From NCBI GenBank assembly GCA_010093995.1, contig ML992504.1:868001-932000 (forward strand): DNA of 64,000 nucleotides. Direction: 5' to 3'. Shown here one piece after another: positions 6,225 through 52,569 of the stretch. The stretch's first letter is position 1, and each line of letters begins with the position of its first letter. A model generated the notes under the pieces. The model saw nothing but the letters and a program-made list of their open reading frames with translations, was not told where the DNA came from and did no database searches. A program made the translations under genes and the position numbers. The DNA comes from Elsinoe ampelina (taxonomy: Eukaryota).

Positions 6225-8475
<2,251 letters not shown>

Positions 8476-26099: not shown

Positions 26100-26405
26100 C
26101 TCGGTCGTGCTTGGATCCAACCCGCCGTGAGCGAGAATCAAGCAGCAGACAGTGCATTTTAGCCGCACAATCGCTTGTGTGGAGTCCGAGCGGCCTTTTG
26201 ATCGGTGAAAGATGTAATGTGTTACAAAAAGAAGTGCGGACAGAAGCAATGAGATGTCTGATGGGTGCGAACCTACCGTGCAGCGCTGCAGACCATGCCA
26301 CCGGGCCATGTCCTTGCTCATGGTGGGGGACAGTGATTGTCCAATCGCCCTAGCTTGTTGTAACTGGCAAATCGGATCGAGAGACGTGTATTTCATTCAG
26401 TGAGT

Positions 26406-29400
26406 TATAATAACCGATTATCTACTATGCGTATACTAACTTATTAGTACTAGTTCTTTAGTACTAGAGAAGCTATACTAGTCTTCTATTATAATACTTC
26501 CCCTCTAGTATAGGTTATTAAAGCTAAAGAACTACCTATTATATATAAGTAAAGTAATTAAGTTATTACTTTATCTTATTATAATTATATATAATTATTA
26601 GTATTAGCTAATTATTAGTAGGGGTTTACTATTAGTTTAGCTTATAGTTATAAATAATAATAGTAACTATTAATAATAGCTAGGTAGTTATTATTCTATT
26701 ATTCTATATAAATAAACTAGCTTATAAATCTTAATAAAAGAGATATAAGTATCTAACTAGCTTCTTTATAGTTTCTCCTTTCTTTATTATACTTTATAAT
26801 AATAGCTTACCTTTTTATACTTTACTTTTATACCTCTTATAGTATAAACTAATAGCTTATAGTATAAGTACTACTATTTAACTAAGTATTAGTAGTATTA
26901 CTACTAGTACTAGAGTACTAGGTAGTCTACTAGATAGTAAAGGTAAAGAGTATAATCTTCCTTAGTCTAGAGATTTAACTAGTTTTAATATAAATAAATA
27001 AAGTACTATAAAGATTATTACTAGACTAAATACTCTTAATATATTATTTCCTATTTAGTCTAAGAAGTAATACTAACTTATTATAGCTAAGACTAAGTAA
27101 GCCCTTACTTAGAAGCTTACTATAAGTATCTAGAATAACTTTACTAGACTTAAGGATCTTAGATACTATAATTATAACTTATTAAACTTAGTCTTTAAGT
27201 CTTCTACTATTTAGGCTTTTAGTACTAGTATCTTAGATCTTCTAGTTATAGCTACTATTTAAGTAAATAACCTAACTAAGGTAATTAACTTAACTAGTTC
27301 TCTAATATATATAGCTACTTTAATAAGAACTAATACTATAGAAAGAGTTATTTACTATAGTATTAACTACTATACTAAGTATTAGAGCTCTACTCTAGGT
27401 AATAATAATAGTCTTAGTAAGGCTAGTAAGTTTAAGTAGTATATTATAGTCCCTAGCTAGTTCTATAGTACTTATATTAACTATACCTATAATTTATAGT
27501 ATAAGACTTACTTTCTTATTTAGTATACTTTTACTCTAAGGCCTTTAAAGGAAAATCCTAGTATTTTAAGTAGTTTAAGACCTATTACTTAGCTTATTTT
27601 ATATAGCTTAATATATCTCTTAACTAAGCTTTTGAAGTCTTCTTTATTTAGTAGTACTCTACTTTAAAAGTTCTTACTAAGGCCTACTTCTTCTTGTAGT
27701 AGGCCTACTAATATTATTAATAAGTCTTTAGTTTATCTTAACTTATATTATTTTATTATAATCCTTATAGATTTTAATAATCTAGCTAATCCTATATAAG
27801 CTAAATTATAAGCCTTATAGGTTATTATAGCTAGATTTACTATAAATATAGCTAAGATTATATCTAATAAGAGAGGTAGTCTTTTTATTATTTACTTCTT
27901 TACTTTACTAAGTTTAGCTAGTAATATAGGCTATAAAAAGAATATATTTAAATCTTTATTAAAGAATAAAAGGTTAAAGGCTAACTCTAATATATTAATA
28001 AGTAATAAGTCTTATACTAGCTCTAAGAGTTTTAAAAGAATAAGAACTTCTTTAAGAAAGTAATTAGTAGAAGAAGCTAAATAGTTATTAATATAAGATA
28101 ATAGATAGTATTAAGTAGTAGATATAGCTTAGGTATAAGTAGCTAGTAATAAGATTATAATAGCTTTTTCCTTTCTCTCTTTTTTAATAATAAAGTAGTT
28201 TACTTTAAACTTTAAATAAATAAAATAGCTTAATAAGTAGTAGTAATATAGTAAGTATACTTAAAATAGTAATATAAATAAAATCTAAATAAGTATATAA
28301 TATAGAAATATACTAAGTAATTAGCCTTTATTAATTAGTTAAAGATCTTATTAGAAGACTTAGACTTAGTAAGTATATTAGTTAATTACTAAATTATATT
28401 AATATACTTAAGCTTAATTACTTTAAGCTTATACTACTCTCTATAGTAGTAGTTCCTTAAGTTAATATACTTTAATCTCTTATAAGTTTAATAGCTAATT
28501 TATTATTAACAAAAACTATAGTTAGACTAAGGTAGATATTAGTAAATAGTCTAAGTTTAATAATAAGATTCCTTAACTAATTAATCTTTTTATAGATCTC
28601 TATTAAAGTAAAGTACTTAATCTTAATACTTAATAGTATAATAATCTTCTATAATCTTAATTTCTAGATAACTAGTATACTAAGTATATAGATAATAGTA
28701 CTAGATATAGATCTTACTATTAATCTATTACTAGTAAAGTCTAAGTTAGAGTAAGCCTTAATAGTATTAACTAATAGGCTATTAACCTTCTTAAAGGTTA
28801 AATCTTTTATAATTATTTTATTAATATATCTCTAGATTTACTTAGCTATAACTATATAAGTAGTAGTTAGATTTTAAAAGAACCTAGCTAGGTAATTAGT
28901 AGTATAACTAATATTAGGCCTTATATTATTAGTTAGATACTATAATTTACTAATAATTCTATTAAATATCTTATAGTTCTAAGTATTAATTTAGCTATTA
29001 GTTAGTTTATAGAGTTAATTAATAAAATATTTTATAGTTCTTATTTAATAGAGATTATAGTCTTTAAACTTCTCTATTAAGTAATATAATTATTTAATTT
29101 TAATTATATCTTTAGTTTTATAAAGTTAGATACTAAGGAAGAAGTTTAAATTTATAATCTTTATTAGAAATTTAAAGTAAAGATTTTTAATTAACTTATT
29201 AATATACTTCTACTTAGTAGTAATAATCCTAAAATTATTAATATATATAAAAACTATATAGTACTTATTAATAAAAAAATAAGTATTACTATATAACTTA
29301 ATAAAGCTAAGTAATAGAAGTACTTTAATAATAGAATTATACTAAAAGGCTATAGCCTATTTAAGTTTATATAAGCCCTTTATAAGAATAATAAGTTTAT

Positions 29401-30625
29401 TTTACTTATTAGGAATTAGTATACCTTCTAAATAGGAGATATAGTTTTTAATATTAATATCTAGTCTAAAGAATATAGTAATAGTATTTATAGTTATAAT
29501 AACCTAGTTATAGTAAAGTATATATATAAGAATTACTCTTCTAGTTTTAGCTTTTAGTATTAGTATAAAGGTTTTAATAAAGTTAATATTCTTCTTTTAA
29601 GTAAAGCTTCTTATAATTTAATAAGCTTTATATCTCTTAACTTTACTATTAATAAGCCTCTTAGTCTTAAAGACCTATTTATCTATTATTAGTTTAATAT
29701 CTTTTAGTACTTATAATTTTTTAATAATTAGAAAGGTTTTAGTATCTTTTAGAGTATTCTATTCTACTTCTATTATAGCTTACTAATAATACTCTTTAAG
29801 AGAAGATAGTACCTCCTTTACTATTTATAAGTCTAGTTTAAAGTTAATAACTATAGATTTAATAATTTTACTATTATTAAGTTTCTTATAATTAATTTAG
29901 TAATATATTCTAAAAGACCTTTTAATAGTTTTATATAGTAAAAGTAATCTCTTTTTCTTACTAATTAGAGGTTATATATTAAAAAATATAATAAGGAAAT
30001 TAATATTCTTATTTTAAGTATATATTAATAGTTAATTAACTTTAACTATAGAATTAAAGATAAAATATAATTTATTAATAACTTTAAGTAGTAATATTAT
30101 AAGGTCTTTACTTTTCTAGTTAGTATTATTAGATTACTTAGTAGGTTACTTCCTTTATTTATTAATAGGTTAGAGATCTATTTAAAGGTAATAATATTAA
30201 AAATAATAATATTATAAATACTTCTTCTATTCTTTAATAGGGGTAGATAGTTATTTAAGAGTTATAAGGTAGTTAAAGGTTAGCTATTTAGTCTAAGTAG
30301 TTTATAGGTTCTTATAACTAAAAGGTAGTTAATTATAGCTATAGCCTTTATAGTAATTACTATTAAATATCTACCCCTCTTAAAGCTATAAAGCCTTAAG
30401 TAGTTATACCTATAGAATATATAATTATTAGATAAGTTATATTACTTAATCTTTATAAACTATACCTTTATTAAAAGTAATATAAGGTAATATTAGAATC
30501 TTTCCTTTCTAAGCTTATTAAGTATAGTACTAATAGAGTATCTAGATAAGGTAATTAGTTTTAAAGTTAAATTATATTCTAATATACTATTTAAGTAGTA
30601 CTTTAGCTTAAAATTTATATAACTT
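26406..30625 (-). mobile_element. Ty1/copia LTR retrotransposon, 3' part (integrase C-terminus, RT, RNase H, 3' region), heavily RIP-mutated
   Basis: De-RIP motifs on the minus strand: K-F-W-A-E (~30600-30615), KGLYGLKQA (~29355-29385), VYVDDF (TAT ATT AAT AAT, ~29235-29250), RSKHIDLKE (~28453-28478), QLADILTK (~28368-28390). A PPT-like AGAGGGGAAG at 26497-26506 suggests a very short 3' LTR (~26406-26496; boundary uncertain). Confidence 0.88.
26864..27520 (+). pseudogene. Antisense accessory ORF of the copia element with a DUF3716-like Cys motif (RIP-degraded)
   Basis: One frame from ATA(=ATG) at 26864 contains only TAA/TAG stops. De-RIP 27371-27517 reads CTKCQ...GKFEQCVVVPGQFHGACVNCAYNSQYETCSL. 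Confidence 0.65.
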
Positions 30626-30740
30626 CGTTACGAAAATCCTAAGCCTAGAAAGCTAGAACTACTAGAACTACTAGAACTATAGAGTATTTTACTGTTATTA
30701 TACTAGGAGATCTAGTAGTTCTAGCTTTTCTACGCCTTAC
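30626..30740. repeat. Left TIR plus subterminal CTAGAACTA repeats, direct and inverted
   Basis: gctagaactactagaactactagaacta (30652-30679) and an inverted copy ctagtagttctagcttttctacgcc (30712-30736). Confidence 0.85.
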
Positions 30741-30959
30741 TAGGCCTACTAGACTCGCCGAGTGCCCACTTTAGAACTAGTTCGTCTACGGAAGTAGGTA
30801 ATTTATAGATATAGTAGGCCTATAAAGGTTCTAGGTTATAGGTTTCTATATTAATCTACTTTGTTAGCTAAATTAGATAGGAAGATTACTATATAAAATC
30901 TATAAGACTAGCACTATATAACTTAACTAACCTAGCTATTCTAACGTTAGTTATGTCCT

Positions 30960-33900
30960 TAGCTACCTTACTTCTTTTGCCTCTTTAAGCTATTTCTTCT
31001 TCTACGCTATATTCTAAAGCATGTTATATATATCGAAATCCGCTATGTTATTAATAAACTTAAGCAAGGAATCTTTAGAAGTATCTTTATCTACTAGTAT
31101 AACGTGTATAATTAAGTATACTTACGTTAGGGAGTATATCCGCCTACCTCTAAGCGTCCTACCTCTCTCTACTATAGTTAATACCTAGGGCTTAATCACT
31201 ATTATACCGTATATGTAGTTTGCCTTACTATCGTGCTTATAAGGCAGAAAAAGGTCTATAAGAACACTAGTGTACTATCGGTAGTAGAGTAGACTAGTAC
31301 CCTTAATGTCCTCTACTATTAGTATATAGCGTAGCTTTGCTAGTAACTTACTATCGAAAGCTAGTAACTTCTCTATCTACTCTTATAAACTAGGTGTCGA
31401 GCTAGATTACTATTCCTATACCTAGAGCTAGTTATATCTCTAGTTTCCCGGCCGGTTCTAATAGTGCTCGGCGTAATATATAAACACTTACTTCTTAGCG
31501 TTAGGATTATTAGTATTATTGCTAGATAGCTAATATATTTATAAAGCTATATAGAGCTTTACTCGTAATAGTAGAGTCTACTTCGAGTCTACTTCGAGGT
31601 AGTCTAACCTATCTAGATTACTAGTTCGTACTTCTCTAATGTCTTAATTGTCTTAATAAATAGTTTAATAATACTCCCGTAGGAAAACTATAATTATCTA
31701 GGACAGTAACGAGCCTTTTAGTATTAGAATAAGCCTCTCGAGCTTCTCTACTATTCGCTACTAATCTAGGCCCTTTAAAGGCATAGACTAATCTAAATAA
31801 GCCTATCTAAACGCTATCTATATGTCGATAGCCTAAGTTACTATAATAGGAGCTTCTAGCGCCTCTCTTCTATTAGCTAGAGTTAATATATATAGTATAA
31901 AGCTACTATTAAAGGCCAATTTAAGGCTAAGTAGATAACAATTATATACTATAACTTAGTTCTCCTATTTGTTCTTCTTGTTTGTTAGCTTAAATAGGTT
32001 CTTAATAAACTTAATATAGTTATACTTAGCATAATTAGAATTAAGGTTTAGAGCTATACTAAAGCGTTAGATAGCTTACACGAAATACGTTATAGTATAC
32101 TACTTTAGGAAGTTAAAATAACTTACTTTATCTCTAGTTTAACTATAATATAGATAGTAAATTTCCTTATATTTATTTAGATAGAAAAGAGTAAGATCTA
32201 TATACCTTAGTATATCTTTGTTATAGCTCTTATATATTATAAGTAGTATAAAGTCTACTAATACCCTTAGACAATATATAGCTTCCTCTACGTATATCTC
32301 GGCTAGGAGAGGAATAAATACTAGTAGAAGTTAATAGAGTAAGCTTTTTTACTTCTTTCTAGTCTATTACTTAATAGTAGAGAAGTAGCTAAACCTTCGT
32401 AGGCCTAGATACGCTAAAATGCCTATAAAACAGTAATTAATAATATTAAGTATATGTTCGGTAGAGGAGCACTTATGTCTAGTAATTCTAGTCTACTCTA
32501 TAGCTACCTTAAAGCGGCATATTTCTAGGGTAGGTATTCTGTCCTATAGTATTAAGGTTGTCTATCTAATAACATATATAAGTACGCTCTTTAAGAGCTA
32601 ATAGAGAATGTCTAGCACTATAGCCTTATAGATGTTAGTCTACTTATAGCTCTATATAAAGTAATTAACATTATATACTAAATCTACACTTACTATTACG
32701 CTTTACTACTATATTTAGATCTACCTCCGCGTAGATATATAAGTACGTAGCTCCGCTCTTACCTTAAGGTCTTCTCTTAGTTCTAGCTTAATTAGGCAAG
32801 TTATATAATAGCGAAGAGACTTAATACTAGTAATCTTAACCTACTCGGCGTAATCTATTATAATAGCTACTATAATTAGGAAACATCTTCTAGTACTACT
32901 ATCTAAATAGATAATATTAACGCCTTTACCTCTAATAATTTACTTAATTAGATTAAAGATCCTCTTTATACACTTATAATAAATAGTTACCTTCTATATT
33001 ATATTACTGTCCTTTATAATAGGTAAGAGCTCTACTAGAAGCTAGCTAGGCTAGGTATTTCTATTGTAGATATATAAAGGTATATTTCTAATAGAAAGGT
33101 AAATAGCGTAAATAGTAAAATCTCCTTAATAATTAGTTATCTAAGTTTAATCGCTTACGAGGATAAGTAGTATAATAGTAGTACTATTAATGTTTATATA
33201 CTCTTAAGCTTCCTACTACTAGTCTCCTAAAGCTAGGTTATTAAAAATTTGCCTAGAGGATTTACCTTCTACTACCTCTATAAACGTTTAAAACAGGCTA
33301 TATACTATATCGTCCTTAAAGCTATAGTACTAAAGAAAGAATTATATTATATCTATTACGTTTATATAGTAGAGAGTATAGCCTATAGCTCCTTAATTTA
33401 TAGGTAGTTAGAATAAAGTCTTTATCTATACTTCTATCTCCGAATAGTTGTCTAATTTATCTATTTAACTACAAAGTTTGTCTAATATCTTAAAACTAAG
33501 CTAATTAGTTAAAGGCTAAATATATAAGTTATATAGGAGATAGGTAATAGTATTCTTACTAATCTTCTCTTCGAAGAGCTATTAAGCAAATATAGTATCT
33601 ATTTTATTCCTAAAAACATAGCTATAGTCTAGATCGTCTATAAACTAGATATCTATCTTAGTAGACCTAGTCCTATAAGGGATTAGTGTTAGGAGTGTTT
33701 ATATATACTCTTTATAGTACTACCTATACTTATAGTATCTTCTCTACTCTTTAACTAGTAGCCTTCTTATACGTCTATATAAAGTAGACTAACCTCCTTA
33801 AAGAAGATAGCTAACTCTTCCTTATTAAGTTTACTAACGAAATAGAAAGAGTAGAGGCCGAGATATACTTTTCTACCCTCTCCTTCTTCTCTCTTATATA

Positions 33901-34302
33901 GTTCTCTCTATCGATACTATACTAGGGGCTAATAGTAGCCCCGTCTATACGTATAAAGCCTCTATCTACTTCGGTATTGCCTTTAGCGTCGAGGTAGACA
34001 CCTAGATAGAGAAAGTCTTATACTACTCTTTCTTTGCTTTATTTATCTATACCTCCTATCTATATATCTTCTCTACTGTTTAAAGATATTTCCTTCTTCT
34101 CTATCTAATATATCTATAGTATTTGTCTTATATATTAGTTAGATAGTTTAGTATATATACTACTAGTATTAATATAAGAATACCTTAGTCTAGCCTAAGC
34201 TAGTATAGGAGATTAGAAGGAAAGTTAAGGTAGTCTTAAGATAGACAGGAGAGAGAGTAGAATATCTAGCTACTACTACTATAAGGGTAGCTTAGTTAGT
34301 AT
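30960..34302 (-). pseudogene. Plavaka transposase (RIP-inactivated); 5' end approximate
   Basis: De-RIP ~33250-33020: IFNDLASGDWWWEAQE..DGATIVPLILASDQTQMTNHQGDFTVYAIYLSIGNIPSHIRN...LLVGLLP. ~32890-32790: RRCFPIVAAIMIDYAEQVKITGIKS.RC.TC. ~32415-32350: AYPGLRRF...KQWTGKE. C-terminal IVHVVP...FVNNIADFD. Confidence 0.88.
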
Positions 34303-34306
34303 AGCT
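33596..34306. repeat. Internal module A (5' part of the transposase gene); second copy at 40451-41160
   Basis: About 700 bp direct repeat, e.g. aactagtagccttcttatacgtctatataaagtagactaacc is present in both copies. Confidence 0.93.
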
Positions 34307-34699
34307 AGAGTAGAGTTAGAGAAGTTCCCGATACTAGATTTTTCCGTGCTATAGCTTTAGAGTTATTAAAGTATCTTTCGCTTATATCGACAGTAGTAGA
34401 GAAGGTGTCTATAGTATCTAGATAGAGTTATATATCTCTTTCTACACGCTTTATATTTACTAGTTACTACTATTATAGTTCGTTCTTGTCGTAAAGAAGA
34501 GAGAAGAAAAGTAGTAGGTTTTATAGTATTTATATATCTCTAACTTCTACTTCGAGCTAGTTCGGCGTTAGTTAGCACCTAGGAGTAATCTACTTTATTA
34601 TACGTGTAAATAATCTAATTCGAAAGGGGTAGGTAAGATACCTTACTACTATAATAAAATTTATTTTCTTAGTATATACTATACTAATCTTAATTAATC

Positions 34700-37600
34700 T
34701 TAATAGGTACTATGCTCTTTAAGTACTACTCTTAACTCTACTTTACTTTCTTAAATATCTTCTCTACTAATCTATAATAAGAATTTATCTATTCGTAGAT
34801 ATTATAGAAGAGAGATATTAAGATAAGTATAAAGGCCTTAGTAGTAGTACTTTTCTAAGACTCTATGTTTCTATAGACATAGCTAAGGTATTACATAATT
34901 CGGCGCCTAAGATATATCGTGTCTAGACTAATTATAGTATTAAATTGTAAGAGGTTAAAGCTAGTCTTAATATATGTTTCTTAGGTAACTAATACCTTTA
35001 ATTCTTCTTTCTTATCTATTGCTATATTAACTATCTCGCTATACTTTTATTAATTGCTAACCCTAGTTAATATAAGACAGACGTTATAGTTATTAAAGTA
35101 AATAAGCTTAGCCTCTTTACTCTCTTAGTACTAGGTAATATACTATATTAGTTAGTTAAAGCTATAAGGGCTAAAGGGATATAGGGACTTACTATATATA
35201 CTAGTATAACTATTATTAGCTTCTAGCTAAAGACTACTACTTGCCTCTTAATCTTCTTATTATACTTAGTGTTTTAGTTAGTTATAGCTACTAGAATTGC
35301 TACTAATACTTTTATCTAGAGACTTTTATAGAACCTATATATATACTACTAGAGGGTACTATTCTTTTTAGCTTTATATAGAGTATTAGCGTACCTTACG
35401 TTTATATTACTAATCTCTTTCTTAACCTTAGAGTGTTTATTATAGATATCTATTAAAGCGAGGAATATAGATAGTACTATAAGCTTGTCGACTATATCTA
35501 GAAAGGATATAGCTTTAGCTAGGCTCTTAAAGACCTTAATAACGTTAATCTCTTCCTTGTCTACTATTTTCTCTTCTCTCTTAAGGCGCCTCTTATTAAT
35601 CTTATTCTTCTAGGCCTTTCTAATCTTATCGAAGTAGTTCTTATAGGCGTAGCTAAGATTCTTATTATACTTAGAGTTAATTTAGATCTTAAGGTTATAT
35701 ATTATATATAGAGAGACACTTATAGTAGGTAATTCTAGCACCTTCTTAAACAGTAAATACATATATCTAGCGCTAACTATTAGTATAACCTTAGCTAGTA
35801 CCTTACTCTATTCTTAGTATAGCTAGTAAGTTTCCTTATCTATATCCTTCTTAGTTTTAGAATTATAGTTATTAGCGAAAGAGAGTATAGACTAGAAGTT
35901 ATTAATGTTCCTTGCCTATAATCTAATATATATAAAGTTAAGCTTATTTAGAATACTCTTCCTCTATTTCAAAGTACCTTCCTTAGGTACTATAGCTAGG
36001 TCGTTAGCTTAGTGTTTAGAGTTCTAATCTATAGCCTATACGTAGCTCTTTATAGGCTTTACTACTCTCTCTCTTTTATTATTAACCTTATATAGATTAT
36101 AGTACCGATATATAGCATAAATAAAGCTAGCTACAATGTTTAAGTATCTAGCTACTAGCGTATCGCTTATATATAATAGAAGAGAATTATTATAGAAGTA
36201 GGCTAACTTCTACTATACTAGCGTGTTATAAGATATAATAGAATAAAATTTGTTAAAGACAATAATTAAGGCTATAAGTTACATCTATAAAGAGGTGTTA
36301 TTAACCTTATATTTTCTTAACTAATTCCTCTCGAAAGTAATATATATTAGATAGTAGTAAATAGTTCTAGGTATAATAAAGACATATTAGTTATTTAGCT
36401 ATTTACCTCGAGGAAAGTTAGATTTAGAGTTAAGAAGTCTCTTAGTAGTAATAGTAGCCTTTAGAGTACTATCCTTGTTCTTTAGCTAGTAATACTACTT
36501 ATAGTAGCTCTCCGGTAAGTTATACTTTATAATAGTCTTATTTAGACTATAAGTATAGTTACTAAACATCTAAGTAATCTTTAATATACTTATTAAGCTC
36601 TAAGCTATAATAGTCTTCTTTCTCTCTACCTACGTAAACTTAAATAGCTTAAGTACCTACTACGTAAGTGTATTAGACTAGGTAATTATAAGGTTTAGTC
36701 TAAACCTCCTTAGGTCTAAGGTAGAATATCTTAGCTCCGGTATTAGAATTGTTACTTTACTATATATCTCTTATATCTCTAGGAATAGCTTCTTAACTTC
36801 TTAAGTCTCTTTAAGGTTACTAAGTATATTAGCTCTTTCTATAGTTAATACTAAAGCTATTACTATCTTACTAAGACCTATCTTATAAGCGAAGATAATA
36901 ATACTATATCCTTTAAGGTCTTACTTTAAGGCGTAAGTAATAGAATATATCTAGAGAGAGAGGATTAGGTATTTCTAATTCTAGCTAGTAAAGACAACTC
37001 TAATAGTTAGTAGATCTATGTCTAGCTTATAGCTAAAGAACTTATAGGTGTAGTCTTATAGCTCTTTACTATACTAATCTAGGACTTAACTTTTAGAGAT
37101 AAAGCTTCGCTAGTCTAGAGCTAGTTTATTACTATTTAGTTTTATAATGTTAGAGCTAGTAAGGAACTAGTTAACCTTATATATTATAATAGTTAGTAGT
37201 ATAGAAACTCTTAGTGTCTCTCTTATAGTAGTTCCTTTTATTATTATCTTCTCTAGTAATAGCTAGACTATATATAGATACTTCTCCTTACTTACTTTTT
37301 GTATTTTAATTTATTTAGGCGTAATAAGAACATCTACTAGAATATTTATAACATTAGTAATATCTTTATCTTTAGCCTCTTTCTCCTCTATATCTTTTAG
37401 CTCTTTTATACCTATAGTCTTTATAGTTTTAATAACTTCTATCTACTTTATAGTTTTAATATCTACTTTAGGAATTATAATATCTACTTTAAGTTCTATA
37501 TTATATTCGACCTTAGTTTAGGTTAGTAAAAGTAATAGCTACTTAATATCTAGAGGAAGCTAAAATTTATTATCTAGAGGAATATAAAATTCTTTATAGT
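34700..37600 (-). pseudogene. SNF2-family (SF2) helicase/ATPase cargo gene, RIP-inactivated; may extend further 5'
   Basis: De-RIP motif I IFAHEMGLGKTVMAL (~36895-36850), II IIVFDEFH (~36267-36244), III MSGTPV (~36171-36154), IV QVVVFGQ (~35245-35222), V ETGFNLSQFNTVI (~34968-34930), VI QCLGRVHR (~34893-34870), all in canonical order. Confidence 0.85.
34951..35354. repeat. Internal module B (helicase C-terminal domain); second copy at 41721-42098
   Basis: Shared ctctcttagtactaggtaatatactatattagttagttaaag and flanks. Copy 2 has a ~27 bp deletion. Confidence 0.9.
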
Positions 37601-39140
37601 GCTTACGAATATTAACTATTAATATTAGTATAGAAATATATAATGCTAAGTATACTTATAAAGAACATCGAGTATTACTTATTTAATTATAGTAATATCT
37701 ATATAGATAATAAAGAATATATTAAATATACTAACGGAGATATAAGATACTAGACCTAAGATAGTAGCGCCTATATCGTATATATCTTTAATAAGTATTA
37801 TATCGAATAGTTCGTTAGAGTCTATATAAAATAGTTTATTATTCTCTTTACTAAAATTCTAACCTTTAGCTAGCGTTAACTTTAGAGCCTCTAAGCTATA
37901 CTAGTAATGTCTAAATAATAAGCCTAGTTCTTTAACTAGTATTAACTATACCTTAATTATGCTTAGACCTCTAGGTTAAACTTCGAAGACTCTTATAACT
38001 ATAATATTAATATTACTAACAAGTTTATTAAAGGCAAGTAGCTAATAGAGGCAATTAACTTATTACTAGTATCTATAATTATAGTTACCTACGCTTATGT
38101 TTATACCTAATAGTATAGTATATAAGAAGTTCGGAAAGGAGCGTTAGGAATTATCGCTATTAGCCGAAGTTCTAGAGGTATATCTATATCTTAGAGGCTA
38201 GGAGTATTACTAGTAGTTATAGTCTTCTTCTCTTCTAAGATCTTACTACTTAGTATTCTTTACCTATAGAATAAATTTCTATATAGTATATTTGTTATTA
38301 AAGCTATTAACTCTACTTAAAGTACATTCTTAGAACTAGGTATAATTATAGCAGCTAGGACAATTAACAAAGAGATTTTTGCTTAGTTTAGTAATAAGCT
38401 TCTACTCGACCTAAACCCTAACTATCTTCTTCTAGGAGTTCTTATTAATATCTTTTAAGGGATTAAAGCCTAGCTCTCTATATATATTATACTACATAGT
38501 TCTAGTATACTTTATTACCTTCTTAAAGTTATCTATAGACTAGTTAAAGATGTTAGTAAAGCATTCTTTAGTCGGTAGTAAACCCTTTACTAGGTATATA
38601 TTAATTTTGTCTATAGTCTATTCCTTAGCTAGCTTTTTGCTAAAGTCGCTAGAATAAGAATTTAATACTATAATTGTATAAGCTTATACCGTAGGTAAAT
38701 CTTATAATAGCTATAGTTAAATAATAGGTAAATAGCTAATATACTTAATTATATATATATTTAAGAGGTATCCTTACGAAAAGCAAGAGTAGAGTAGAAG
38801 GTTAAAGATAATAAATAGTAACTAGTAAATAAAGAAGATATACTTAGAAGGTTATATAGTAGACTATATATTATAAGGTCTTTATTATTTTAGGAGAAAA
38901 GCTATAAGTAGTTAGAAAATCTATATAAAAGCTAGCTCGGCTACCGAAATAGATAGTAACTCGTATATAGCTATTAGCTATAAATTTAAAAGGTATATAA
39001 TAGAATATATCTATTTTATTACATAAAGTAGATAGTAAAGTAGGTATAGAGTAAGTGTCTAAGTTAAATCCAATTACTAAGGTAGTTAATATAGTTATAA
39101 TAGCAATAATAAGAGAGTTAAAGGAAGGATATAGAATTAC

Positions 39141-39795
39141 TAATAGCTTTATACTACTATCCTCTACGCGTATAGAAAGGGGAGGCAATAGCGATAGAAG
39201 CTAAAAGAGTAATATATTATAGATATACTATAGCTAGAGTATAATTACGACCTAGCTTGCTCTATAGTCCTATCTAGATTTAAAGTAGATATAAAAGAGA
39301 ATATAGAAAAGATAGACTATAATAATATATAGTATTAGAAGATACTATATACTAGCGATGCTAAACCTTATAATATTCTCTATACCTAGTAATATCTACT
39401 AGGTAGTATAAGCACTATTACTATAGCACACAAGTACTAGTTAGAGTATTAAGGTCGACTAGACAAAGAATAATATTTCTAGTCTAGGTAATTACTAGCT
39501 TAACTAGTATACTATCTATTATCTATAGCCTCTTCTCTCTACTATAGGTATACTAATCTATTAGTAGGGCATAGTATAGCTAGAGTAAGTATTCTATTCT
39601 ACTCCTTCTAGCCCTTCGAGTTTACTATATTATATGCCTCCTAGTCTATATATATTTATTCTTCTATCTACCTCTTCCTAGAAAGTATAGGCCTATCTAG
39701 ACAAAGGTTAAGTAGAAGTAAATAACGAAGTAGATATAGAGCTATCGAACTAGACAGCCTTATAGTAATATAAACGAGAGTAAGTAAATAACTTT
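39141..39795. repeat. Internal module C (unidentified); second copy at 45809-46463
   Basis: About 655 bp direct repeat, e.g. aaagaataatatttctagtctaggtaattactagcttaactagtatactatctattatctatagcc is present in both copies. Confidence 0.93.
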
Positions 39796-41549
39796 AATAA
39801 TACTATTCCGTTAGGTATAGACTAGTATAGTAACGTAGAGGTCGTCTAGTTACTAAAGGTTTAGTTAGTATTTTAGCCTATTTACTTTAGCTAAGAGCTA
39901 TATACGTCCGCCGGGATATAATACCTACTAATAGTAATTGTTATACTAAGAAACGGCAAAGTTAGTAGCTAGTAGCGTCTACTAACTTCCCCTTCGTAAA
40001 CTACTAGATAAATATCCTAGTAGTAGAAACCTACGTCTAAGAGAAAAGAATATACCCTTACTACCTACGAAGAATAGCCGTTATTAACTATAGAGAAAGG
40101 CCTCCCCTCTAACTTAGCTACTAGGTAGTATATTAGATAGCGAATCGAGTATTAGAGATCTACGTCTAGTTGTAAATTAGATACTATAACTAGAATAATA
40201 AGTAATTTATAGTACTCTACTAAAACTACTTAGTCTTAAAGATAGTACACGTGTTTTAATACTTTAGTAGTATAGTTATATTCCTACTAGTAGAGTGCTA
40301 CCTGTTTCGGTCGAGTATAAGTTACTATAATAGGTATTATAAAGATATTTAACCTTCTAATTCTAGTAATACTATAGAAAACACTTGTAGTTCTAAGCGT
40401 ATTATTATACTATAGATAGCTTACTACAAAGGTAATATAGTAACGGCCGGATTTATCTCCTTTCTAAAGACATAGCTATAGTCTAGATTAGCTATAAACT
40501 AGATATCTATCTCGGCGGACCTAGTACTATAGTAGATTAGTGTTAGGAATAGTTATATATACTTTTTACTATGCTACCTATACTTATAGTGCCTCCTTTA
40601 CTCTTTAACTAGTAGCCTTCTTATACGTCTATATAAAGTAGACTAACCTTCTTAAAGATAATAGCTAACTCTTTCTTATTAAGTTTGCTAATAAAGTAAA
40701 AAGAGTAGAGGCTAAGATATACTTTCCTATCCTCTTCTTCTTCTCTCTTATATAGTTCTCTCTACCGACGCTATACTAGAGGCTAATAGTAGCTCTATCT
40801 ACACGTATAAAGCCTCTATCTACTTTAGCGTTACTCTTGTTATTAAGGTAGATACCTAGATAGAGAGAGTCTTATACTACTCTTTTTTTGCTTTATTTAT
40901 CTATGCCTTTTATCTATATACCTTCTTATCTATTTAAAGATATCTCCTTCTCCTCTGTCTAATATATCTATAGTATTTGTCTTATATATTAGTTAGATAG
41001 TTTAGTATATATACTACTAGCGTTAGTATAAGAATGTCTTAGCCTAGCCTAAGCTAGTAGAGGAGATTAAGAGGAAAGTTAAGGTAGTCCTAAGATAGAG
41101 GAGAAAGAGAGTAGAGTATCTAGCTACTACTTCTATAAGGGTAATATAGTTAGTATAGCTATTATAGAATAAGAATAGAATAGAATAATAAAATAAGTTT
41201 TAATTGTTAGTTATCTACGAATAGAGAGTAAACCTATATAGTTATCTATAGTAGAGAAGATATCTATTATATTAAGATAGTATTTATTATATCTTTCCGT
41301 ATACTTCGCATTTACTAGTATAAACTATAGTAGTAGCTTATTAGTAAGGAGAAGCTATAAGGAGTTAAGTAGGAAGCGACATAGGTAGTTTCTCTAAGAT
41401 CTATTTTGTCTAAGCTTAGTAATAGTTTATAAATAGGTAGTGCCTACTTCGTTTTCTACTTTAGAAATATAAGAGTAAAAACTTTATTCTAATAATATCT
41501 ACTAAACCTCTTTACTAAAAAAGAGTACTACTATTTAAGCTCCTTACAT

Positions 41550-44200
41550 AGGTTAACGCTACTATAGTATAATCCTTAGCTTCGTATATATTCTATATCT
41601 ATAATCTCTTTCTTTATCCCTAGCTATATACTTTAAGTATATAACACTTACGTTAATAGTTACGTTAATAGTTATATTTAGCTAAGAAAGAGTAGATATA
41701 TTCTAGCGTTAAAGTGTATAGAGTTAAGGCTAGTCTCGATATATACTCTTTAGGCAACTAATACCTTTAACTCTTCTTTCTTATCTATTACTATATTAGC
41801 TATATTATACTACTTCTATTAATTACTAACCTTAGTTAATACAAGATAGATATTATAATTATTAAAGTAAGTAAGCTTAGCCTCGTTGCTCTCTTAGTAC
41901 TAGGTAATATACTATATTAGTTAGTTAAAGTTATTTAAGCTAAAAGGGTAAGGGGACTTATTATATATATAAGCGGAACTACTCTCTACCTCTTAATCTT
42001 CTTATTATACTTAGTGTTCCGGCTAGTTAAAGCTACTAGAATTGCTATTAATACTTCTATTCGGGGGTTAATATAGAACTTGTATATATACTATTAGAAG
42101 TAGTAACCTATTTCTACTTTATATAAGCTATTAGTCTAAGAGCTATAAATGTTTCTTCTAGCTATATCTCTTTTATATCTATTGTCTCTAATGTTTCTAG
42201 AAGCGGGAAGTGCTAATACTAATAGTAGAATAAAGATTATAAGAAGAACTAGTTAAGACTTAATTAAACTTTCTAATATCTTAGTAATATAGAGCTCCTT
42301 ACTATTTAAGGTATCTTTACCTTTGTTTACTCTAACCTTACCTACCTTGTCCTTCTAGTTATTATTAATATTAGTTAAGGAGAATCTACTATTTACCCCT
42401 AAAGGCCCTTATATAGTAGAGTAGATAGAGAAATTAACGTTGTAAGTTATATAGGGGGAGATATATATAGTAATAAAACCTAGTTTTCCCTTTAGACGTA
42501 ATTACTATTATTAGGCGCTAACTATCTTTAAGTCTTAAAGAGGTTATAGGCCTATTCCTTAGATAGCTTTCTACTAGCCTTATCTATCTACGTCTTAGTA
42601 TAGTAAAGCTACTTATTTACTTATAGTAATTAAGAGCGAAACTTAACTATAGCTAAACTCTACTCCGAGTAGCCTAGTAGATATATAGAACCTTAGTATC
42701 TCTAAGTACTTTTATTTACTTAGGGTATAGGCGAAGATAATAGTATTTATAGTATAAATAATAAGACATCTACTAAATCCCTTATAGCGCTATAGAGTAA
42801 ATACTATTATAGTTCTTATCTAAATCGCTATAGAAATATAATTTATAAATATAACTAAGCTATATCTACGAGGGTAGTAAAGTAAGGAAATTACTTATGT
42901 TACTAAAGTAGTAACTCTATAACATTACTTATACTATTACTATCTTACGTAAAGGACTTCTATATAAATAAATTTTAAAAAAATAACTAGTCGAATTAGA
43001 GAGGTATAATTATAGCTTTACTATAATAGCTAACTTAAGCGTCTAATTATACTAATAGATCTAGTTTAGCGCTACGTAGAATAGACGTAAGGACAATATT
43101 ACTATAGTTTAATACTTTACTAGTTAGTAAGATTTATCTATTTTAAAAGCTACTTCGCTAGTAAACTAGAACTCTCGTAGACTAGACTTGTCTATCTACC
43201 TACTATACTTTTAGCTAATAGTCTTATACTACTTAGGGGCAATAACTATATTATTTTATTAGCTAGTAAGTGTCTTAATATCTAGTAAAGAAAGTAATAC
43301 TCCTTAGCTACTATATTAGTAATATTACTATTTAATCTTTCTAATTATAAACGTATACTACTTTTATTTCTATAAGTAGTAAGTTCTAAACTAGGTAGTA
43401 ATAAGGACGCCTCTTAATTCCGATATTAGCTATATAGGCTAATCTAGTTTAACACTAAACTAGATAGCGGTCTATACATTAGTAGTATATCTAGAAATAC
43501 TATTTTAATATAGTAGGTCCCTTTAGAGTTTGCTTATATAGTTAATGTTCTTTAATCTAATTACTATACTATAGTAAGCTACTTAAGATCTATAATTTAA
43601 GTAGAGGAATAGTAAGGACTTTAGAATTGTCTTCTACGAGGCTACTATAAAGGAGGTATTTTAATATAGCTAGGGAATTATAATATACTAAGATATATAC
43701 TCTACTATTTTATATCTAAAAGCGAAGAAATAGTAGTAAGACTTACTCTAGTTTAGTATAAGATCTACTACTATAAATCTATCGGGAACTTAGCTTTTAG
43801 TAGTAGATCTAGTTTAGTTATAATTTATACCTTAGTAGATACATTAAGGAATTTTTAGACTAGTATATTACCTAAGTCTAGTATTTAACAAACTTCTAAG
43901 TCTAAATAATTAATAAGGCTCTTATCTCTCTTTTCTCTTTATCTAACTTATATATACTTTACTTCTTATTTACTCCTATATATACTATAACTCTAAGAAT
44001 AGTTCTTCCTCTTTATCCTTAAATTCTATAGTCTTACGTCCTTCTCTATTACTCTTTACTAATATAACTTAATAACTCTTCCTTATATCTTTTAGTATTA
44101 GGTCCCTTAATTTTGCTATAATTCTGTCTATAAATAAGAGGTTATTTCTATTAGAGGTATTATAATATAGAGTTAGGCTCGAGGTATCTTAATATAGTAA
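41550..44200 (-). pseudogene. Second, divergent SNF2-like gene (degenerate motifs); limits approximate
   Basis: Shares module B with helicase 1. Upstream, at equivalent spacing, are possible degenerate motif I (GFMVAD....GKS, ~43780-43740) and Ia (IVIAP, ~43250-43235). Motif II was not recognisable. Confidence 0.5.
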
Positions 44201-46559
44201 GGAGAGTTATTTATTATATATAAAGTCTATTTCTAAACCGAGTAGATTATTATTATTTAAAGGAGCTTACTATCTAGTTTAGTATCTATAGAGGTTTACT
44301 AGGATAATTAGCTATAAATAGTATTAACTCTACTAAAGACCTACCTTAGATATAATATAGTAACTTTAATATGTCTTCTATATCTCGACTAAGGATAAGG
44401 AACATCTTAACCTTTCTAGCTAGTAGGTAGATATAGGAGTAGTTGATAGCTCTAGTAAGGTCTATATTATCGGTAATAAGATCTATATCGTCTAGGTCGT
44501 TCTAGCGTATAAGGAATAGCTTAATATTCTATTTTCTATAAATACTATTCTTATTAATAGCTCGCTAGATCTTCTTAATAGATAGCCTCTTTATACTAGG
44601 TAGATTAATGTTGTTTATAGATATACTCTTTATGTATTTAAGCTTAGTAGTACTATACTATTAATCGGAGGCGACACCTATAAGCTAAATAATAATCTAT
44701 TAATAGTTAGGTATAATATCTAGTTATATCTATTCTATATTATAAGCTAGAGTCTCCTTAAAAGGTAGTAGAGCGTAATTATACATATTGTTACTAGTTC
44801 TAAGCTATAACCCTCTATAATTAAGTAATAGTAGTGCGCCGCCTAAACTATAAGGTCGCTTAGGTATTATTATATCTAGCATATTAGGTAGGCTACTCTA
44901 TCCTATAGTCCTTTTCTTCTTTCTAAGTAACTTAGATCTATAATTTTTATTCTATAGTAAGAAGATCTATATAGCATATTTAGTATTAAAGTCTTTATTG
45001 TTTATGCCGCTACTAAAGACATACTTCTTAAACTAGTTAAAATCTTAATAACTAAGACAATAGACGAAAAGATTTTATACTTTTCTAGAACTATTATTAA
45101 GAATGCTCTTAGAGCTCTTTCTAACCTTATTATACTCTTACGAGCGGGATATAGACTTATTAATAAGAACATTAAGGCCTTACTTCTTACCTTATTTATA
45201 GAAAATGTCTATAGTAGTGTTACTTACCTCTTTAAAGTTATTCTTACTCTAGTTAAAGTATGCTATCTAGAAATCCTTAGCGAAGGTATTATACTTTATA
45301 AGCTCTAATATAATATTATCCTTAGTCTAGTCCTTTACGTCTCGCTTACAGCTTTCGAGTAATAGACGTTTTATTACTAAAGCTATACTTAATATAAGCT
45401 CTTAAATAAATTAGTAAAAGAGTAAGTAAGTATCGGAAGAATAATAACTATATTAAATCTCTAGGCTAAGAACTATAAGATTAATAGATAATTATAAGTA
45501 TTAGGTTTACTAATATAGTAAAGGTATATATATAAGGTGTTTATCGCAATAAAGAGTATACTTTTCTTTATACCTAAAACAGACAAAAAGCATACGCTAG
45601 AATAGGTTAGTGCTCTTTATGCCTATTAATATCTAGTTAGTAAGCCGAATTAAACTCTAGAGATCTAGTTCGTAAAGCTAGCGCTTTTATATATTAGGTA
45701 TTTCTTACTTAAAACCCCTACTACTAGTGATTTTACAATACGTACTATAGTTAATATAGCTTATACTTTAATACAAAAGAGTAGGATAAGAAGGTAATAC
45801 AAAAAGAATAATAGCTTTATACTATAGTTCTCTACGTATATAGAAAGGAGAGGTAGTAGTAATAGAAGCTAGAAGAGTAGTATACTATAGATATACTATA
45901 GCTAGAGCGTAATTACGACCTAGCTTACTCTATAGTTCTATCTAGATTTAAAGTAGATATAAAAGGGAATATAGAAAAGATAGACTATAATAATATATAG
46001 CATTAGAAGACACTATACGCTAGCGACGCTAAACCTTATAATGTTCTCTATACTTAGTAATATTTACTAGGTAGTATAAGCACTATTACTATAGTATATA
46101 AGCACTAGTTAGAGCGTTAAGATTAACTAGATAAAGAATAATATTTCTAGTCTAGGTAATTACTAGCTTAACTAGTATACTATCTATTATCTATAGCCTT
46201 TCCTCTCTACTATAGGTATACTAATCTATTAGTAGAGTATAGTATAGCTAGAGTAAGTATTCTATTCTACTCCTTCTAGCCCTTTAAGTTTGCTATATTA
46301 TATACCTTCTAGTCTATATATGTTTGTCCTTTTATCTACCCCTTCCTAGAAAGTATAGGCCTATCTAGACAAAGGTTAAGTAGAAGTAGATAACAAAGTA
46401 AGTATTAAGCTATTAAACTAGATAGCCTCGTAGTAATATAAATAAGAGTAAGTAAATAACTTTTATAAGTTTCTTTTATTAGGTATAACCTTTTACTTAA
46501 TATTAGAGAATAGCAATAATAGGTAATAGTTTAGGTAATAATAGAGCCTTAATAGACAG

Positions 46560-52000: not shown

Positions 52001-52099
52001 TAAACTAGTTCGGTTAGTATAGTCTGCCTTTTATAACTTTATTTATACTTTCGTAGCTCTTAATTACTATATATAGTAATATAGACAGTAACAACAAGG

Positions 52100-52274
52100 A
52101 CTACTAGTAAGACTAGTAAGCGCTAGGGCGATTAGTAAGACTAGCGAGCGCTAGGGCGATTAGTAAGACTAGCAATAGTTAAGACATAGAGCGAGCTAGA
52201 AATACTAGAAATACTAGAACTACTAGCGATCGCTAGTAGTTCTAGCGTTTCTACGCCCTAGGATTTTCGTAACG
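52100..52274. repeat. Right subterminal repeats and right TIR
   Basis: About 2.5 copies of a ~28 bp unit (tagtaagactagYRagcgctagggcgat), ctagaaata repeats, a perfect 32 bp palindrome at 52214-52245, and a TIR ending ...ggattttcgtaacg at 52274. Confidence 0.88.
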
Positions 52275-52569
52275 TTAGAAATATATTAATTATAGATATA
52301 AGCTCTATAGTTAAAGTATCTAATATAGGTTAATAAGACTAATCTATTATTATTAAGAAGATCTTTCTTTAATTCTTATATAAGGATCTTTTTTATTTTA
52401 GTATAAGTAATTCTATTATTAATATAAATTATAAATTCTACTAATAGGTACTAGAGTTTAAAGAGTACTTTATAGTTAATAAAGATATATTTTATTCTAA
52501 AAATAATAGCTTTATTAGTAGCTTTAAACTCTCTATTTTAATATTAAGTATTAAGTATAGAGATATTCT
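52275..52569 (-). mobile_element. Continuation of the copia element (integrase core) beyond the Plavaka insertion
   Basis: De-RIP IHIDNG (~52430-52412). RAYIHDQHIP reads in frame into KLYKFWAE at 30625 when one TT is kept. Confidence 0.75.

What the first reader, a model, noticed from the sequence alone, without database searches (positions are those of the whole stretch)
34700..37600. SNF2-family chromatin-remodeller-like helicase carried directly upstream of the transposase
Seen: SF2 motifs I, II, III, IV, V and VI in correct order after de-RIP (AHEMGLGKT, IIVFDEFH, MSGTP, VVVFGQ, TGFNL, QCLGRVHR), with spliceosomal introns, co-oriented with the transposase. Established: the EMGLGKT / SGTP / Q..GR.HR..Q signature is SNF2-type, unlike the Pif1 helicase of Helitrons or the RecQ-like helicase of AcademH. 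Inference: the element encodes its own DNA translocase, possibly to remodel chromatin for transposition or to counter silencing.
Basis: partly seen in the sequence, partly recalled or inferred. Interest (0 to 1): 0.82.

Follow-up and report, generated by a model that had tools for sequence, protein, structure and literature searches.

The report
Dead SNF2 gene beside Plavaka transposase
A mutation-riddled, long-dead fungal gene for an SNF2-type DNA motor lies just ahead of, and points the same way as, an equally dead Plavaka transposase gene, so it may once have been extra cargo of that jumping gene, though this one window cannot prove that.

Summary
Raw translation matches no Pfam or PDB entry. 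A RIP-aware codon-profile alignment against a local SNF2 model scores 44.6 bits. None of 57 natural control scans (max 32.5) and none of 220 simulated sequences (max 34.5) reach that. Each ATPase lobe alone also beats all controls.

The neighbouring transposase is real. Pfam PF18759 (Plavaka) matches 33386..32580 on the minus strand, E = 2.1e-24, 3' of the SNF2 relic and co-oriented. Both genes are dead; the SNF2 frame has 44 TAG/TAA stops in 741 codons.

It is not shown that the two genes share one mobile unit. A partial second copy (40451-46549) shares only three blocks and has no transposase. Its homology to the first copy ends about 190 bp before the transposase domain, and no significant terminal repeats were found. 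No un-RIPed relative could be retrieved.

The papers I could search name TET/JBP or PAG1-3 as Plavaka accessory genes, never SNF2. RIP-degraded Rad5/SNF2-like helicase repeats are already known in Parastagonospora nodorum. Moderately interesting and unresolved.

The parts
34600..37750 (-). RIP-inactivated SNF2-family ATPase gene relic (about 3.1 kb). It runs in one reading frame from about 37750 to 35230 and in a second frame from about 35200 to 34600.
   Evidence: RIP-aware profile alignment of 44.6 bits over profile positions 57-487, window 37445..34870. Low-stop frame map. Period-3 signal of 3-7.6 for 600-nt windows starting between 34951 and 37201, spanning about 34950-37800. 44 in-frame stops in 741 codons, all TAG or TAA.
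36864..36890 (-). Motif I (Walker A). Observed AYKIGLSKI, RIP-compatible with A-H-E-M-G-L-G-K-T.
   Evidence: The 20-codon block around it scores 24.5 bits; the best ungapped motif score is 23.7, against 4.6 for the next best in the region.
36654..36695 (-). Motif Ia region. Observed NLIIT*SNTLT**V against profile tLivcpaslklnWe.
36243..36266 (-). Motif II (DExH box). Observed IIVFNKFY, compatible with IIVFDE[FLSP]H.
   Evidence: Aligned to profile 194-233.
36156..36170 (-). Motif III. Observed ISDTL, compatible with [MIV]SGTP.
   Evidence: It lies 32 codons after the start of motif II, matching the local profile to within one position.
35433..35486 (-). Motif IV, candidate 1 (KLIVLSIFLALIDIYNKH). 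This is the one chosen by the profile alignment.
   Evidence: profile 377-411, 10.9 bits.
35223..35240 (-). Which of the two candidates is the real motif IV is unresolved.
   Evidence: (8.6 bits).
34870..35097 (-). C-lobe block holding motif V (TSFNL at 34965) and motif VI (*YLSYVYR at 34893).
   Evidence: 76 codons align without a gap to profile positions 412-487, 25.1 bits..
32580..33386 (-). Plavaka transposase domain (RIP-damaged, 23 stops in 269 codons).
   Evidence: Pfam PF18759, E = 2.1e-24, 86.8 bits, profile 42-317 of 325, in one frame. The translation is shown.
31950..33400 (-). Likely extent of the transposase coding region.
   Evidence: One frame has 5-8 stops per 100 codons while the other two frames have 9-20. 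Period-3 signal of 3.3-4.5 for windows starting between 32401 and 32851.
33597..34321 (.). Block R1, between the SNF2 3' end and the transposase. It is repeated at 40451-41175. No coding frame is evident.
   Evidence: 97.7% identity with purines and pyrimidines collapsed. No low-stop frame. Period-3 signal of 0.4-1.3.
34935..35390 (.). Block R2 (inside the SNF2 C-lobe), repeated at 41704-42135. Weaker similarity continues to about 35817.
   Evidence: 94-96%; 58.3-bit HSP against a control maximum of 29.1.
39119..39820 (.). Block R3, upstream of the SNF2 relic, repeated at 45787-46488. Weaker similarity reaches inward to about 38276.
   Evidence: 98.6%; 42.0-bit HSP.
40451..46549 (-). Partial second copy (B). 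It has R1', R2' and R3' but an unrelated 2.5-3.6 kb centre. It has no SNF2 N-lobe and no transposase.
   Evidence: No relevant Pfam hit in six frames (one sub-threshold DUF7887 match, E = 0.063).
39836..40435 (.). Spacer of about 590-600 bp between copies A and B. It is flanked by the only two occurrences of TATAGTAACG in the window (39826 and 40436).

Best explanation
This is a dead, RIP-mutated stretch of a Plavaka-lineage (EnSpm/CACTA-related) DNA transposon in a Dothideomycete fungus. The flanking Rax2 gene is 100% identical to a protein of Elsinoe ampelina.

Shown:
- On the minus strand an SNF2-family ATPase gene (about 37.75 to 34.6 kb) comes first.
- A roughly 1.2-kb stretch follows; its 725-bp core (block R1) shows no coding frame.
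- The Plavaka transposase gene comes next (domain 33386..32580).
- The SNF2 relic is real, is broken by dozens of RIP-type stops, and is adjacent to and co-oriented with the transposase relic.
- The junction between the SNF2 3' end and the stretch leading to the transposase exists in two copies.

Inferred:
- The SNF2 gene was an accessory (cargo) gene of the transposon. Other Plavaka elements carry TET/JBP, and red-algal ones carry PAG1-3.
- When it was alive it would have been an ATP-driven double-stranded-DNA translocase. It could have acted on chromatin or DNA at the element, for example opening nucleosomal DNA for excision and integration or opposing silencing.
- Nothing in the sequence can show which of these, and today it does nothing.
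For: - RIP-aware SNF2 profile alignment scores 44.6 bits. 0 of 57 natural controls and 0 of 220 simulations reach it.
- Both lobes exceed all controls separately and lie in the right order.
- The C-lobe aligns ungapped over 76 positions.
- Pfam Plavaka transposase, E = 2.1e-24, on the same strand. The domain starts about 1.2-1.5 kb beyond the end of the SNF2 relic.
- RIP is uniform across all sub-blocks, with (CpA+TpG)/(ApC+GpT) of 0.11-0.22. So the SNF2 core was itself repeated DNA.
- R2 (SNF2 C-lobe) and R1 (the stretch leading to the transposase) recur together in copy B.
- Plavaka elements are known to carry chromatin-related accessory genes (passages of 10.1101/2025.02.11.637652; passages and section 20 of PMC12730594).
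Against: - Homology between copies A and B stops at about 33575-33597, roughly 190 bp before the transposase domain.
- Copy B has neither a transposase nor an SNF2 N-lobe.
- No significant TIRs or TSDs. The best Plavaka-type candidate pair is 31508/47311, 20 of 22 nt, but 0.16-0.26 such pairs are expected by chance.
- Raw translation gives no SNF2_N or Helicase_C hit and no PDB SNF2 hit.
- No un-RIPed relative was found by a word-index search, by phmmer against 1.84 billion representatives (0 hits), or in metagenome contigs.
- No paper that I could search links SNF2 to Plavaka.
- There is only one window and one full copy.
Confidence: 0.5

Rival explanations
1. The SNF2 relic belongs to a separate repeat family, a duplicated and RIPed host-type helicase gene or gene cluster. 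The model is repeat X3X3R8 of Parastagonospora nodorum, which holds tandem Rad5/SNF2-like helicase genes. On this reading it merely sits next to a 5'-truncated Plavaka relic in a mosaic of nested dead repeats.
For: - Two tandem copies, the second incomplete and divergent. Passages of PMC3017866 describe X3X3R8 the same way: 'two tandem X3 repeats', the second incomplete and 10-20% divergent.
- A/B homology ends just before the transposase domain, and B has no transposase.
- R1 shows no coding frame, so the transposase may lack its N-terminal part.
- A short motif resembling the end of R3 precedes R1 in both copies. This fits a tandem or bounded unit that excludes the transposase.
- The block holds other unrelated relics, such as a Copia RT at 29704..29045.
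Against: - No convincing Rad6/E2 relic in the RIPed block. The best RIP-aware UBC scores are 27.1 and 25.7 bits against a reversed-control maximum of 24.3, and those alignments do not keep the HPN/Cys motif.
- The genes are co-oriented and about 1.2-1.5 kb apart.
- No RING-like Cys/His pattern is visible between motifs III and IV. I judged this by eye on the translation, and it is weak evidence.
- Nothing was found that would mobilise such a unit on its own.
Confidence: 0.35
2. One-off capture. A Plavaka copy, or a neighbouring rearrangement, picked up a host SNF2 gene once. The gene never served the element and is absent from the rest of the family.
For: - Only one full SNF2 copy in the window.
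- No published SNF2-Plavaka link in the papers searched.
- Copy B lacks the N-lobe.
Against: - The SNF2 core is RIPed as heavily as the shared blocks. That implies it had at least one further copy.
- The gene relic appears whole, with profile positions 57-487 in order, and is not a fragment.
Confidence: 0.1
3. There is no SNF2 gene. The motif chain is an over-reading made possible by the freedom of mental de-RIP in TA-rich DNA.
For: - No Pfam, PDB or protein-database hit with the raw translation.
- The RIP-aware test uses a home-made model and one parameter set.
- The local profile was seeded on exact DEMGLGKT matches, which sharpens motif I.
Against: - 44.6 bits against a maximum of 32.5 in 57 natural controls and 34.5 in 220 simulations.
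- The C-lobe, which owes nothing to the seeding motif, also beats all controls.
- One frame stays low in stops for 2.4 kb, and all its stops are TAG/TAA.
- A period-3 signal covers the same span.
Confidence: 0.05

Closest known systems
Plavaka DNA transposons (EnSpm/CACTA-related) with accessory genes: TET/JBP in Agaricomycetes, PAG1-3 in red algae
   Same: The transposase domain is a clear PF18759 match. An extra chromatin- or DNA-acting gene lies beside the transposase. The size range is multi-kilobase. Sources: passages of 10.1101/2025.02.11.637652; passages and section 20 of PMC12730594.
   Different: - The neighbour here is an SNF2-type ATPase. The passages I read of those two papers name no SNF2 accessory gene.
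- The host is a Dothideomycete ascomycete. Section 20 of PMC12730594 reconstructs its Plavaka families from fungi of Agaricomycotina.
- Termini (TGT..ACA or CATCA..TGATG) and 2-3 bp TSDs could not be established.
- The copy is dead.
Repeat family X3X3R8 of Parastagonospora nodorum (RIP-affected cluster with tandem Rad5/SNF2-like helicase genes, a Rad6-like E2 and unknown ORFs; passages of PMC3017866)
   Same: - An SNF2-like helicase inside a RIP-degraded repeat of a Dothideomycete.
- Two tandem copies, the second incomplete and divergent.
- Recognisable only after allowing for RIP.
   Different: - No convincing E2 relic here.
- A Plavaka transposase is adjacent here. The passages I read of that paper do not mention one.
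- Sequence homology to X3 could not be tested because no X3 sequence was available to me. That paper's old-format supplements were not opened.
Helicase-encoding DNA transposons (Helitron; AcademH and KolobokH, named as sources of TE-derived Helicase_C in PMC10799480)
   Same: A DNA transposon context with an SF1/SF2 motor protein gene.
   Different: The local profile match here is to SNF2-type sequences, with GLGKT, DExH, SGTP and Q..GR.HR motifs. In Helitrons the helicase is part of the transposition protein. Here it is a separate gene.

Membership tests
SNF2 family ATPase (Pfam SNF2_N + Helicase_C) | Significant match to curated family models | tested here: not met
   Six-frame raw translation of 34000-38500 with stops as X gives no Pfam family at E <= 1. 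phmmer against PDB gives no SNF2 chain at E <= 10. This is expected for DNA with about 90% of CpA/TpG sites mutated, so it lowers the claim only a little.
SNF2 family ATPase (Pfam SNF2_N + Helicase_C) | Helicase motifs I, Ia, II, III, IV, V and VI in order with SNF2-like spacing, above chance | tested here: met
   The RIP-aware alignment to a local 564-position SNF2 profile scores 44.6 bits over positions 57-487. 0 of 57 natural controls (max 32.5) and 0 of 220 simulations (max 34.5) reach it. Each lobe separately scores above all controls.
SNF2 family ATPase (Pfam SNF2_N + Helicase_C) | Intact open reading frame (a functional gene) | tested here: not met
   44 stops in 741 codons of the main frame, 32 TAG and 12 TAA.
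Rad5/Rad16/Ris1-type SNF2 subfamily | RING finger inserted between motifs III and IV; HIRAN domain in Rad5 (features recalled, not from a call) | not testable with these tools
   No local profiles for RING or HIRAN, and no fungal SNF2 paralogues could be fetched. By eye, no Cys/His(Tyr) cluster appears in the translation between 36138 and 35486. Subfamily left open.
Plavaka transposon | Plavaka transposase domain (PF18759) | tested here: met
   E = 2.1e-24, 86.8 bits (cut-off 26.3), profile 42-317 of 325, window 33386..32580 minus strand.
Plavaka transposon | Termini 5'-TGT..ACA-3' or 5'-CATCA..TGATG-3' with 2-3 bp TSDs (section 20 of PMC12730594) that enclose both genes | tested here: inconclusive
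   The best RIP-compatible CATCA..TGATG pair is 31508/47311, 20 of 22 nt. The per-pair chance of such a score is about 3-5e-4 and 558 pairs were tried, so 0.16-0.26 are expected by chance. Other searches for inverted repeats found nothing.
Plavaka transposon | SNF2 gene present in other copies of the same element | tested here: inconclusive
   The only other copy in the window (B) keeps the SNF2 C-lobe block and R1 but not the N-lobe or a transposase. No whole genome is held for this window.
X3X3R8-like helicase/E2 repeat (P. nodorum) | Rad6-like ubiquitin-conjugating enzyme relic beside the tandem helicase repeats | tested here: not met
   RIP-aware scan of 26.5-64 kb with a 155-position E2 profile built from 117 viral-contig ORFs. 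The best scores are 27.1 and 25.7 bits against a reversed-control maximum of 24.3, and the alignments do not keep the catalytic motif. An E2 relic outside the window is not excluded.

The most novel reading that the evidence does not exclude
A lineage of Plavaka transposons in ascomycetes carries an SNF2-type chromatin or DNA translocase as a regular accessory gene. It would be a motor counterpart to the TET/JBP, SET/methylase and ParB-oxygenase genes carried by other Plavaka elements. That would make it a DNA transposon bringing its own remodeller to act on chromatin at its donor or target sites, or to resist silencing. The P. nodorum X3X3R8 'gene cluster' might then be a relative whose transposon nature went unrecognised.
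Probability: 0.3. Interest if true: 0.7.

Novelty: new variant of a known kind. Interest (0 to 1): 0.45.

Why it matters
Accessory genes of large DNA transposons are a current way of asking how mobile elements deal with host chromatin and silencing. Known examples include TET/JBP, SET/methylase and VANDAL anti-silencers. An SNF2 motor as transposon cargo would add an ATP-driven remodeller to that list. It would also extend Plavaka elements with accessory genes into RIP-active ascomycetes.

In practice this copy is dead. The link rests on adjacency in one window, so its main value is as a pointer for a genome-wide survey. The work also shows that a RIP-aware codon-profile alignment can recover a gene that standard searches miss completely.

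Tried and rejected
**Searches that found nothing**
- Raw six-frame Pfam scans of 34000-38500, 38000-47600 and 47500-55900 gave nothing relevant. 55900-64000 was not scanned; one search was too large, and I repeated only its first half.
- phmmer of the N-lobe translation against PDB gave no SNF2 chain.
- I looked for un-RIPed relatives of the SNF2 relic three ways. The word-index search scored 7556 candidates and none reached E <= 10. phmmer against 1.84 billion representatives gave 0 hits. The scan's earlier findings gave nothing by place, sequence or words.
- I looked for relatives of the transposase relic in metagenome contigs. 202 pattern matches came back, and none was confirmed.

**Detours**
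- An E. coli RapA search to collect SNF2 sequences returned only RapA orthologues and was not used.
- Recalled transposase motifs (DGFNPF, DGNF.L, DANF.L) gave no RIP-compatible matches above chance. They were probably the wrong motifs for this family.

**Tests on the second copy and the rest of the block**
- Copy B as a second SNF2 gene is rejected. Its best chain is 25-29 bits, out of order, and spread over 3.5 kb.
- Other near-threshold SNF2 chains (26.5-31 kb minus strand at 30.9 bits, 51.25-55.75 kb plus strand at 30.0 bits) look like chance chains.
- The Rad6/E2 relic test was not convincing.
- A second transposase copy elsewhere in the window was sought by RIP-aware pair scoring and not found. 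All scores were <= 26.7 bits, below the 29.1-bit control maximum of a like scan.

**Boundaries of the element**
- TIR searches were not significant.
- The spacer 39821-40450 shows no homology to the DNA left of copy A.
- A deRIP consensus from copies A and B is not feasible. Their centres are not homologous.
Full report
**Setting.** The window has two parts. Bases 1-26.4 kb have about 52% G+C and carry ordinary fungal genes: Rax2, OGG1, LanC-like, ankyrin and amine oxidase. The Rax2 reading frame is 100% identical to a protein that NCBI names from Elsinoe ampelina. From about 26.4 kb to the end G+C is 17-36%. This part has the RIP signature: TpA/ApT is 1.84-1.9 and (CpA+TpG)/(ApC+GpT) is 0.15-0.16, against 0.56 and 1.29 in the gene-rich part. 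About nine in ten CpA/TpG sites have been converted, so ordinary translated searches should fail there.

- The raw translation gives no Pfam hit in any frame at E <= 1 and no SNF2 chain in the PDB at E <= 10.
- I collected 119 loci from viral contigs with a degenerate pattern for the motif DEMGLGKT. I kept 77 ORFs that extend at least 380 residues beyond the motif and built a 564-position HMM from them.
- I wrote a codon-level local alignment. Each profile column is scored as a log-odds over all ancestral codons under a context-dependent RIP model. Gap, frameshift and intron-jump states are allowed. One parameter set was chosen in advance and never tuned.
- The minus strand of 34000-38500 scores 44.6 bits. 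The plus strand and the two reversed sequences score 16.6-25.0.
- The alignment runs through profile positions 57-487 in order. It includes motif I (24.5 bits for a 20-codon block), Ia, II and III, and a 76-codon ungapped stretch holding motifs V and VI.
- Of 60 scans of 4.5-kb chunks of the whole RIPed block (both strands and their reversals), 57 do not contain the relic on the scored strand. Their maximum is 32.5.
- 0 of 220 second-order Markov simulations reach 44.6 (max 34.5). A Gumbel fit gives P of about 1.5e-4.
- The N-lobe alone scores 28.2-31.3 against a control maximum of 26.4. The C-lobe alone scores 25.3-28.3 against 24.8. The C-lobe owes nothing to the motif used to collect the training set.

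Independent, model-free signs agree.
- One minus-strand frame has only 2-9 stops per 100 codons from about 37750 to 35350. Another frame takes over from 35200 to 34600.
- The main frame has 44 stops in 741 codons, all TAG or TAA. That is what conversion of Gln and Trp codons predicts.
- Period-3 power is raised over about 34950-37800 and falls on both sides.
- I conclude that an SNF2-family ATPase gene relic is there, dead, on the minus strand.

'With introns' is not established. Motifs I to IV (35240) share one frame, and there is a single frame change between 35240 and 35097. There are two candidates for motif IV (35486 and 35240), and I could not choose between them.

**The neighbour.** A raw six-frame Pfam scan of 26400-34200 gave PF18759, Plavaka transposase. 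The match has E = 2.1e-24 and 86.8 bits, and covers profile positions 42-317 of 325 in one minus-strand frame at 33386..32580. A low-stop frame continues to about 31950. The gene order on the minus strand is SNF2, then about 1.2 kb whose 725-bp core (R1) has no evident coding frame, then the transposase. The same scan showed a Copia-type reverse transcriptase relic at 29704..29045, E = 1.2e-11.

**One mobile unit or two neighbours?**
- With purines and pyrimidines collapsed (which hides RIP changes), the region 33597-39820 shares three blocks with 40451-46488. These are R1 33597-34321 (97.7%), R2 34935-35390 (94-96%) and R3 39119-39820 (98.6%).
- Weaker similarity extends inward to about 35817 and from about 38276.
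- The centres are unrelated, about 2.5 kb in copy A holding the SNF2 N-lobe.
- Copy B shows no coherent SNF2 alignment apart from the shared C-lobe piece. It has no Pfam hit and nothing like the transposase.
- RIP is equally severe in shared and unshared parts. So the SNF2 core once had other copies.
- The A/B homology ends at about 33575-33597, some 190 bp 5' of the transposase domain.
- The 590-bp spacer between A and B is flanked by the only two occurrences of TATAGTAACG in the window. A short motif resembling the end of R3 precedes R1 in both copies. That could mean a bounded or tandemly duplicated unit that excludes the transposase.
- No inverted terminal repeats were found.
- Section 20 of PMC12730594 gives the published Plavaka termini. 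With those, the best RIP-compatible CATCA..TGATG pair is 31508/47311, which would enclose the transposase and both copies. About 0.16-0.26 pairs that good are expected by chance among the 558 tried.
- The question therefore stays open. I put 0.5 on 'SNF2 was cargo of the Plavaka element', 0.35 on 'separate SNF2-bearing repeat that happens to adjoin it', and 0.1 on a one-off capture.

**Relatives elsewhere.** None could be fetched.
- No whole genome is held for this window.
- The word-index protein search found nothing at E <= 10.
- phmmer of the 741-residue raw frame against 1.84 billion representatives gave 0 hits.
- A metagenome scan with the raw transposase translation confirmed none of 202 pattern matches.
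- This is weak evidence either way, because a RIPed query is a poor probe.

**What is known.**
- Passages of 10.1101/2025.02.11.637652 describe Plavaka as an EnSpm/CACTA lineage first described in basidiomycetes. One accessory gene (TET/JBP) is reported in fungi and three (PAG1-3) in red algae.
- Passages and section 20 of PMC12730594 give two Plavaka lineages with defined termini and 2-3 bp TSDs. 'SNF2' does not occur in that text, and its one mention of a helicase concerns Helitrons.
- Full-text searches for Plavaka with SNF2, for DNA transposon + SNF2 + accessory gene + transposase and for Plavaka alone (20 papers, 16 listed) turned up no SNF2-Plavaka link.
- The founding paper (PMC3918813) is not held, and bioRxiv supplements are closed. 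Either could bear on this claim.
- SNF2-like helicases inside RIP-degraded repeats are not new. Passages of PMC3017866 describe the P. nodorum repeat X3X3R8 as two tandem X3 repeats, the second incomplete and 10-20% divergent. It carries Rad5/SNF2-like helicase genes, a Rad6-like E2 and unknown ORFs.
- I tested for an E2 relic with a second local profile (117 viral-contig ORFs). The best scores are 27.1 and 25.7 bits against a reversed-control maximum of 24.3, and the alignments do not keep the catalytic motif. That is not convincing.

**Mechanism.** Shown: a dead SNF2-type ATPase gene lies next to a dead Plavaka transposase gene, on the same strand, in repeated DNA. Inferred from what SNF2 enzymes do: when alive the protein would have translocated on double-stranded DNA using ATP. 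As transposon cargo it could have loosened nucleosomal DNA at the element's ends or target, helped repair after excision, or opposed heterochromatin. The sequence cannot distinguish these. The subfamily is open, because no RING or HIRAN test was possible and no fungal paralogues could be fetched.

**Verdict.** If the linkage holds this is a new variant of a known kind, a Plavaka element with a different accessory gene. Interest is moderate, because the evidence is one dead copy with unresolved ends.

Noticed in passing
window 29045-29704 (minus strand): Copia-type reverse transcriptase relic (Pfam RVT_2, E = 1.2e-11). It lies in the most AT-rich part of the block (17-25% G+C), and the surrounding 26.5-29.7 kb has a strong period-3 signal (up to 16.9).
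   Followed up: partly
window 30649-30728 and 52194-52274: A short G+C-rich, self-complementary island (81 bp, 79% to its own reverse complement) inside RIPed DNA. Related 28-42-bp pieces occur at 52.2 kb, next to a 28-bp tandem repeat (52105-52175). It may be a repeat terminus that escaped RIP.
   Followed up: no
window 52769-55101 vs 61870-59550; 57675-59546 vs 64000-62128; 55110-55572 vs 61665-62127: Large inverted and direct repeats, 86-99.8% identical with purines and pyrimidines collapsed. They show that the right half of the block is built from at least one other repeat family in both orientations. No Pfam hit in 47.5-55.9 kb; 55.9-64 kb was not scanned.
   Followed up: partly
window 39826 and 40436: The 10-mer TATAGTAACG occurs only twice in 64 kb, at the two ends of the 590-bp spacer between copies A and B. 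A similar motif of about 20 bp also precedes R1 of copy A (about 33572-33593). It could be a long target duplication, a tandem-duplication joint or a preferred target. Unexplained.
   Followed up: partly
window 31508 and 47311: Candidate terminal inverted repeat, RIP-compatible with the published PlavakaB ends CATCA..TGATG (20 of 22 nt alike). It would bound a 15.8-kb element holding the transposase and both SNF2-unit copies. It is not significant (0.16-0.26 expected by chance).
   Followed up: yes
window 38871-39200 and about 37900-38200 (minus strand): Two further stretches with one low-stop frame upstream of the SNF2 relic. One is a 109-codon open frame inside block R3. They could be N-terminal exons or another small gene of the unit. 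No family match.
   Followed up: no
window 44100-45300: The centre of copy B has a coding-like period-3 signal (up to 5.8). It matches no Pfam family, the SNF2 profile or the transposase. Its origin is unknown.
   Followed up: partly
window about 26400: Sharp edge of the RIPed block directly beside an apparently intact host reading frame (24669-26396, weak PAN and Fringe-like hits). G+C drops from 53% to 35% and then 24% within 2 kb.
   Followed up: no
window 6833-7573 (plus strand): An open frame matching Pfam NAD-GH (PF10712), E = 1.8e-36. I recall this family being reported as an antisense-frame artefact of glutamate dehydrogenase genes. If so, a GDH gene probably lies on the other strand. 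Not checked.
   Followed up: no
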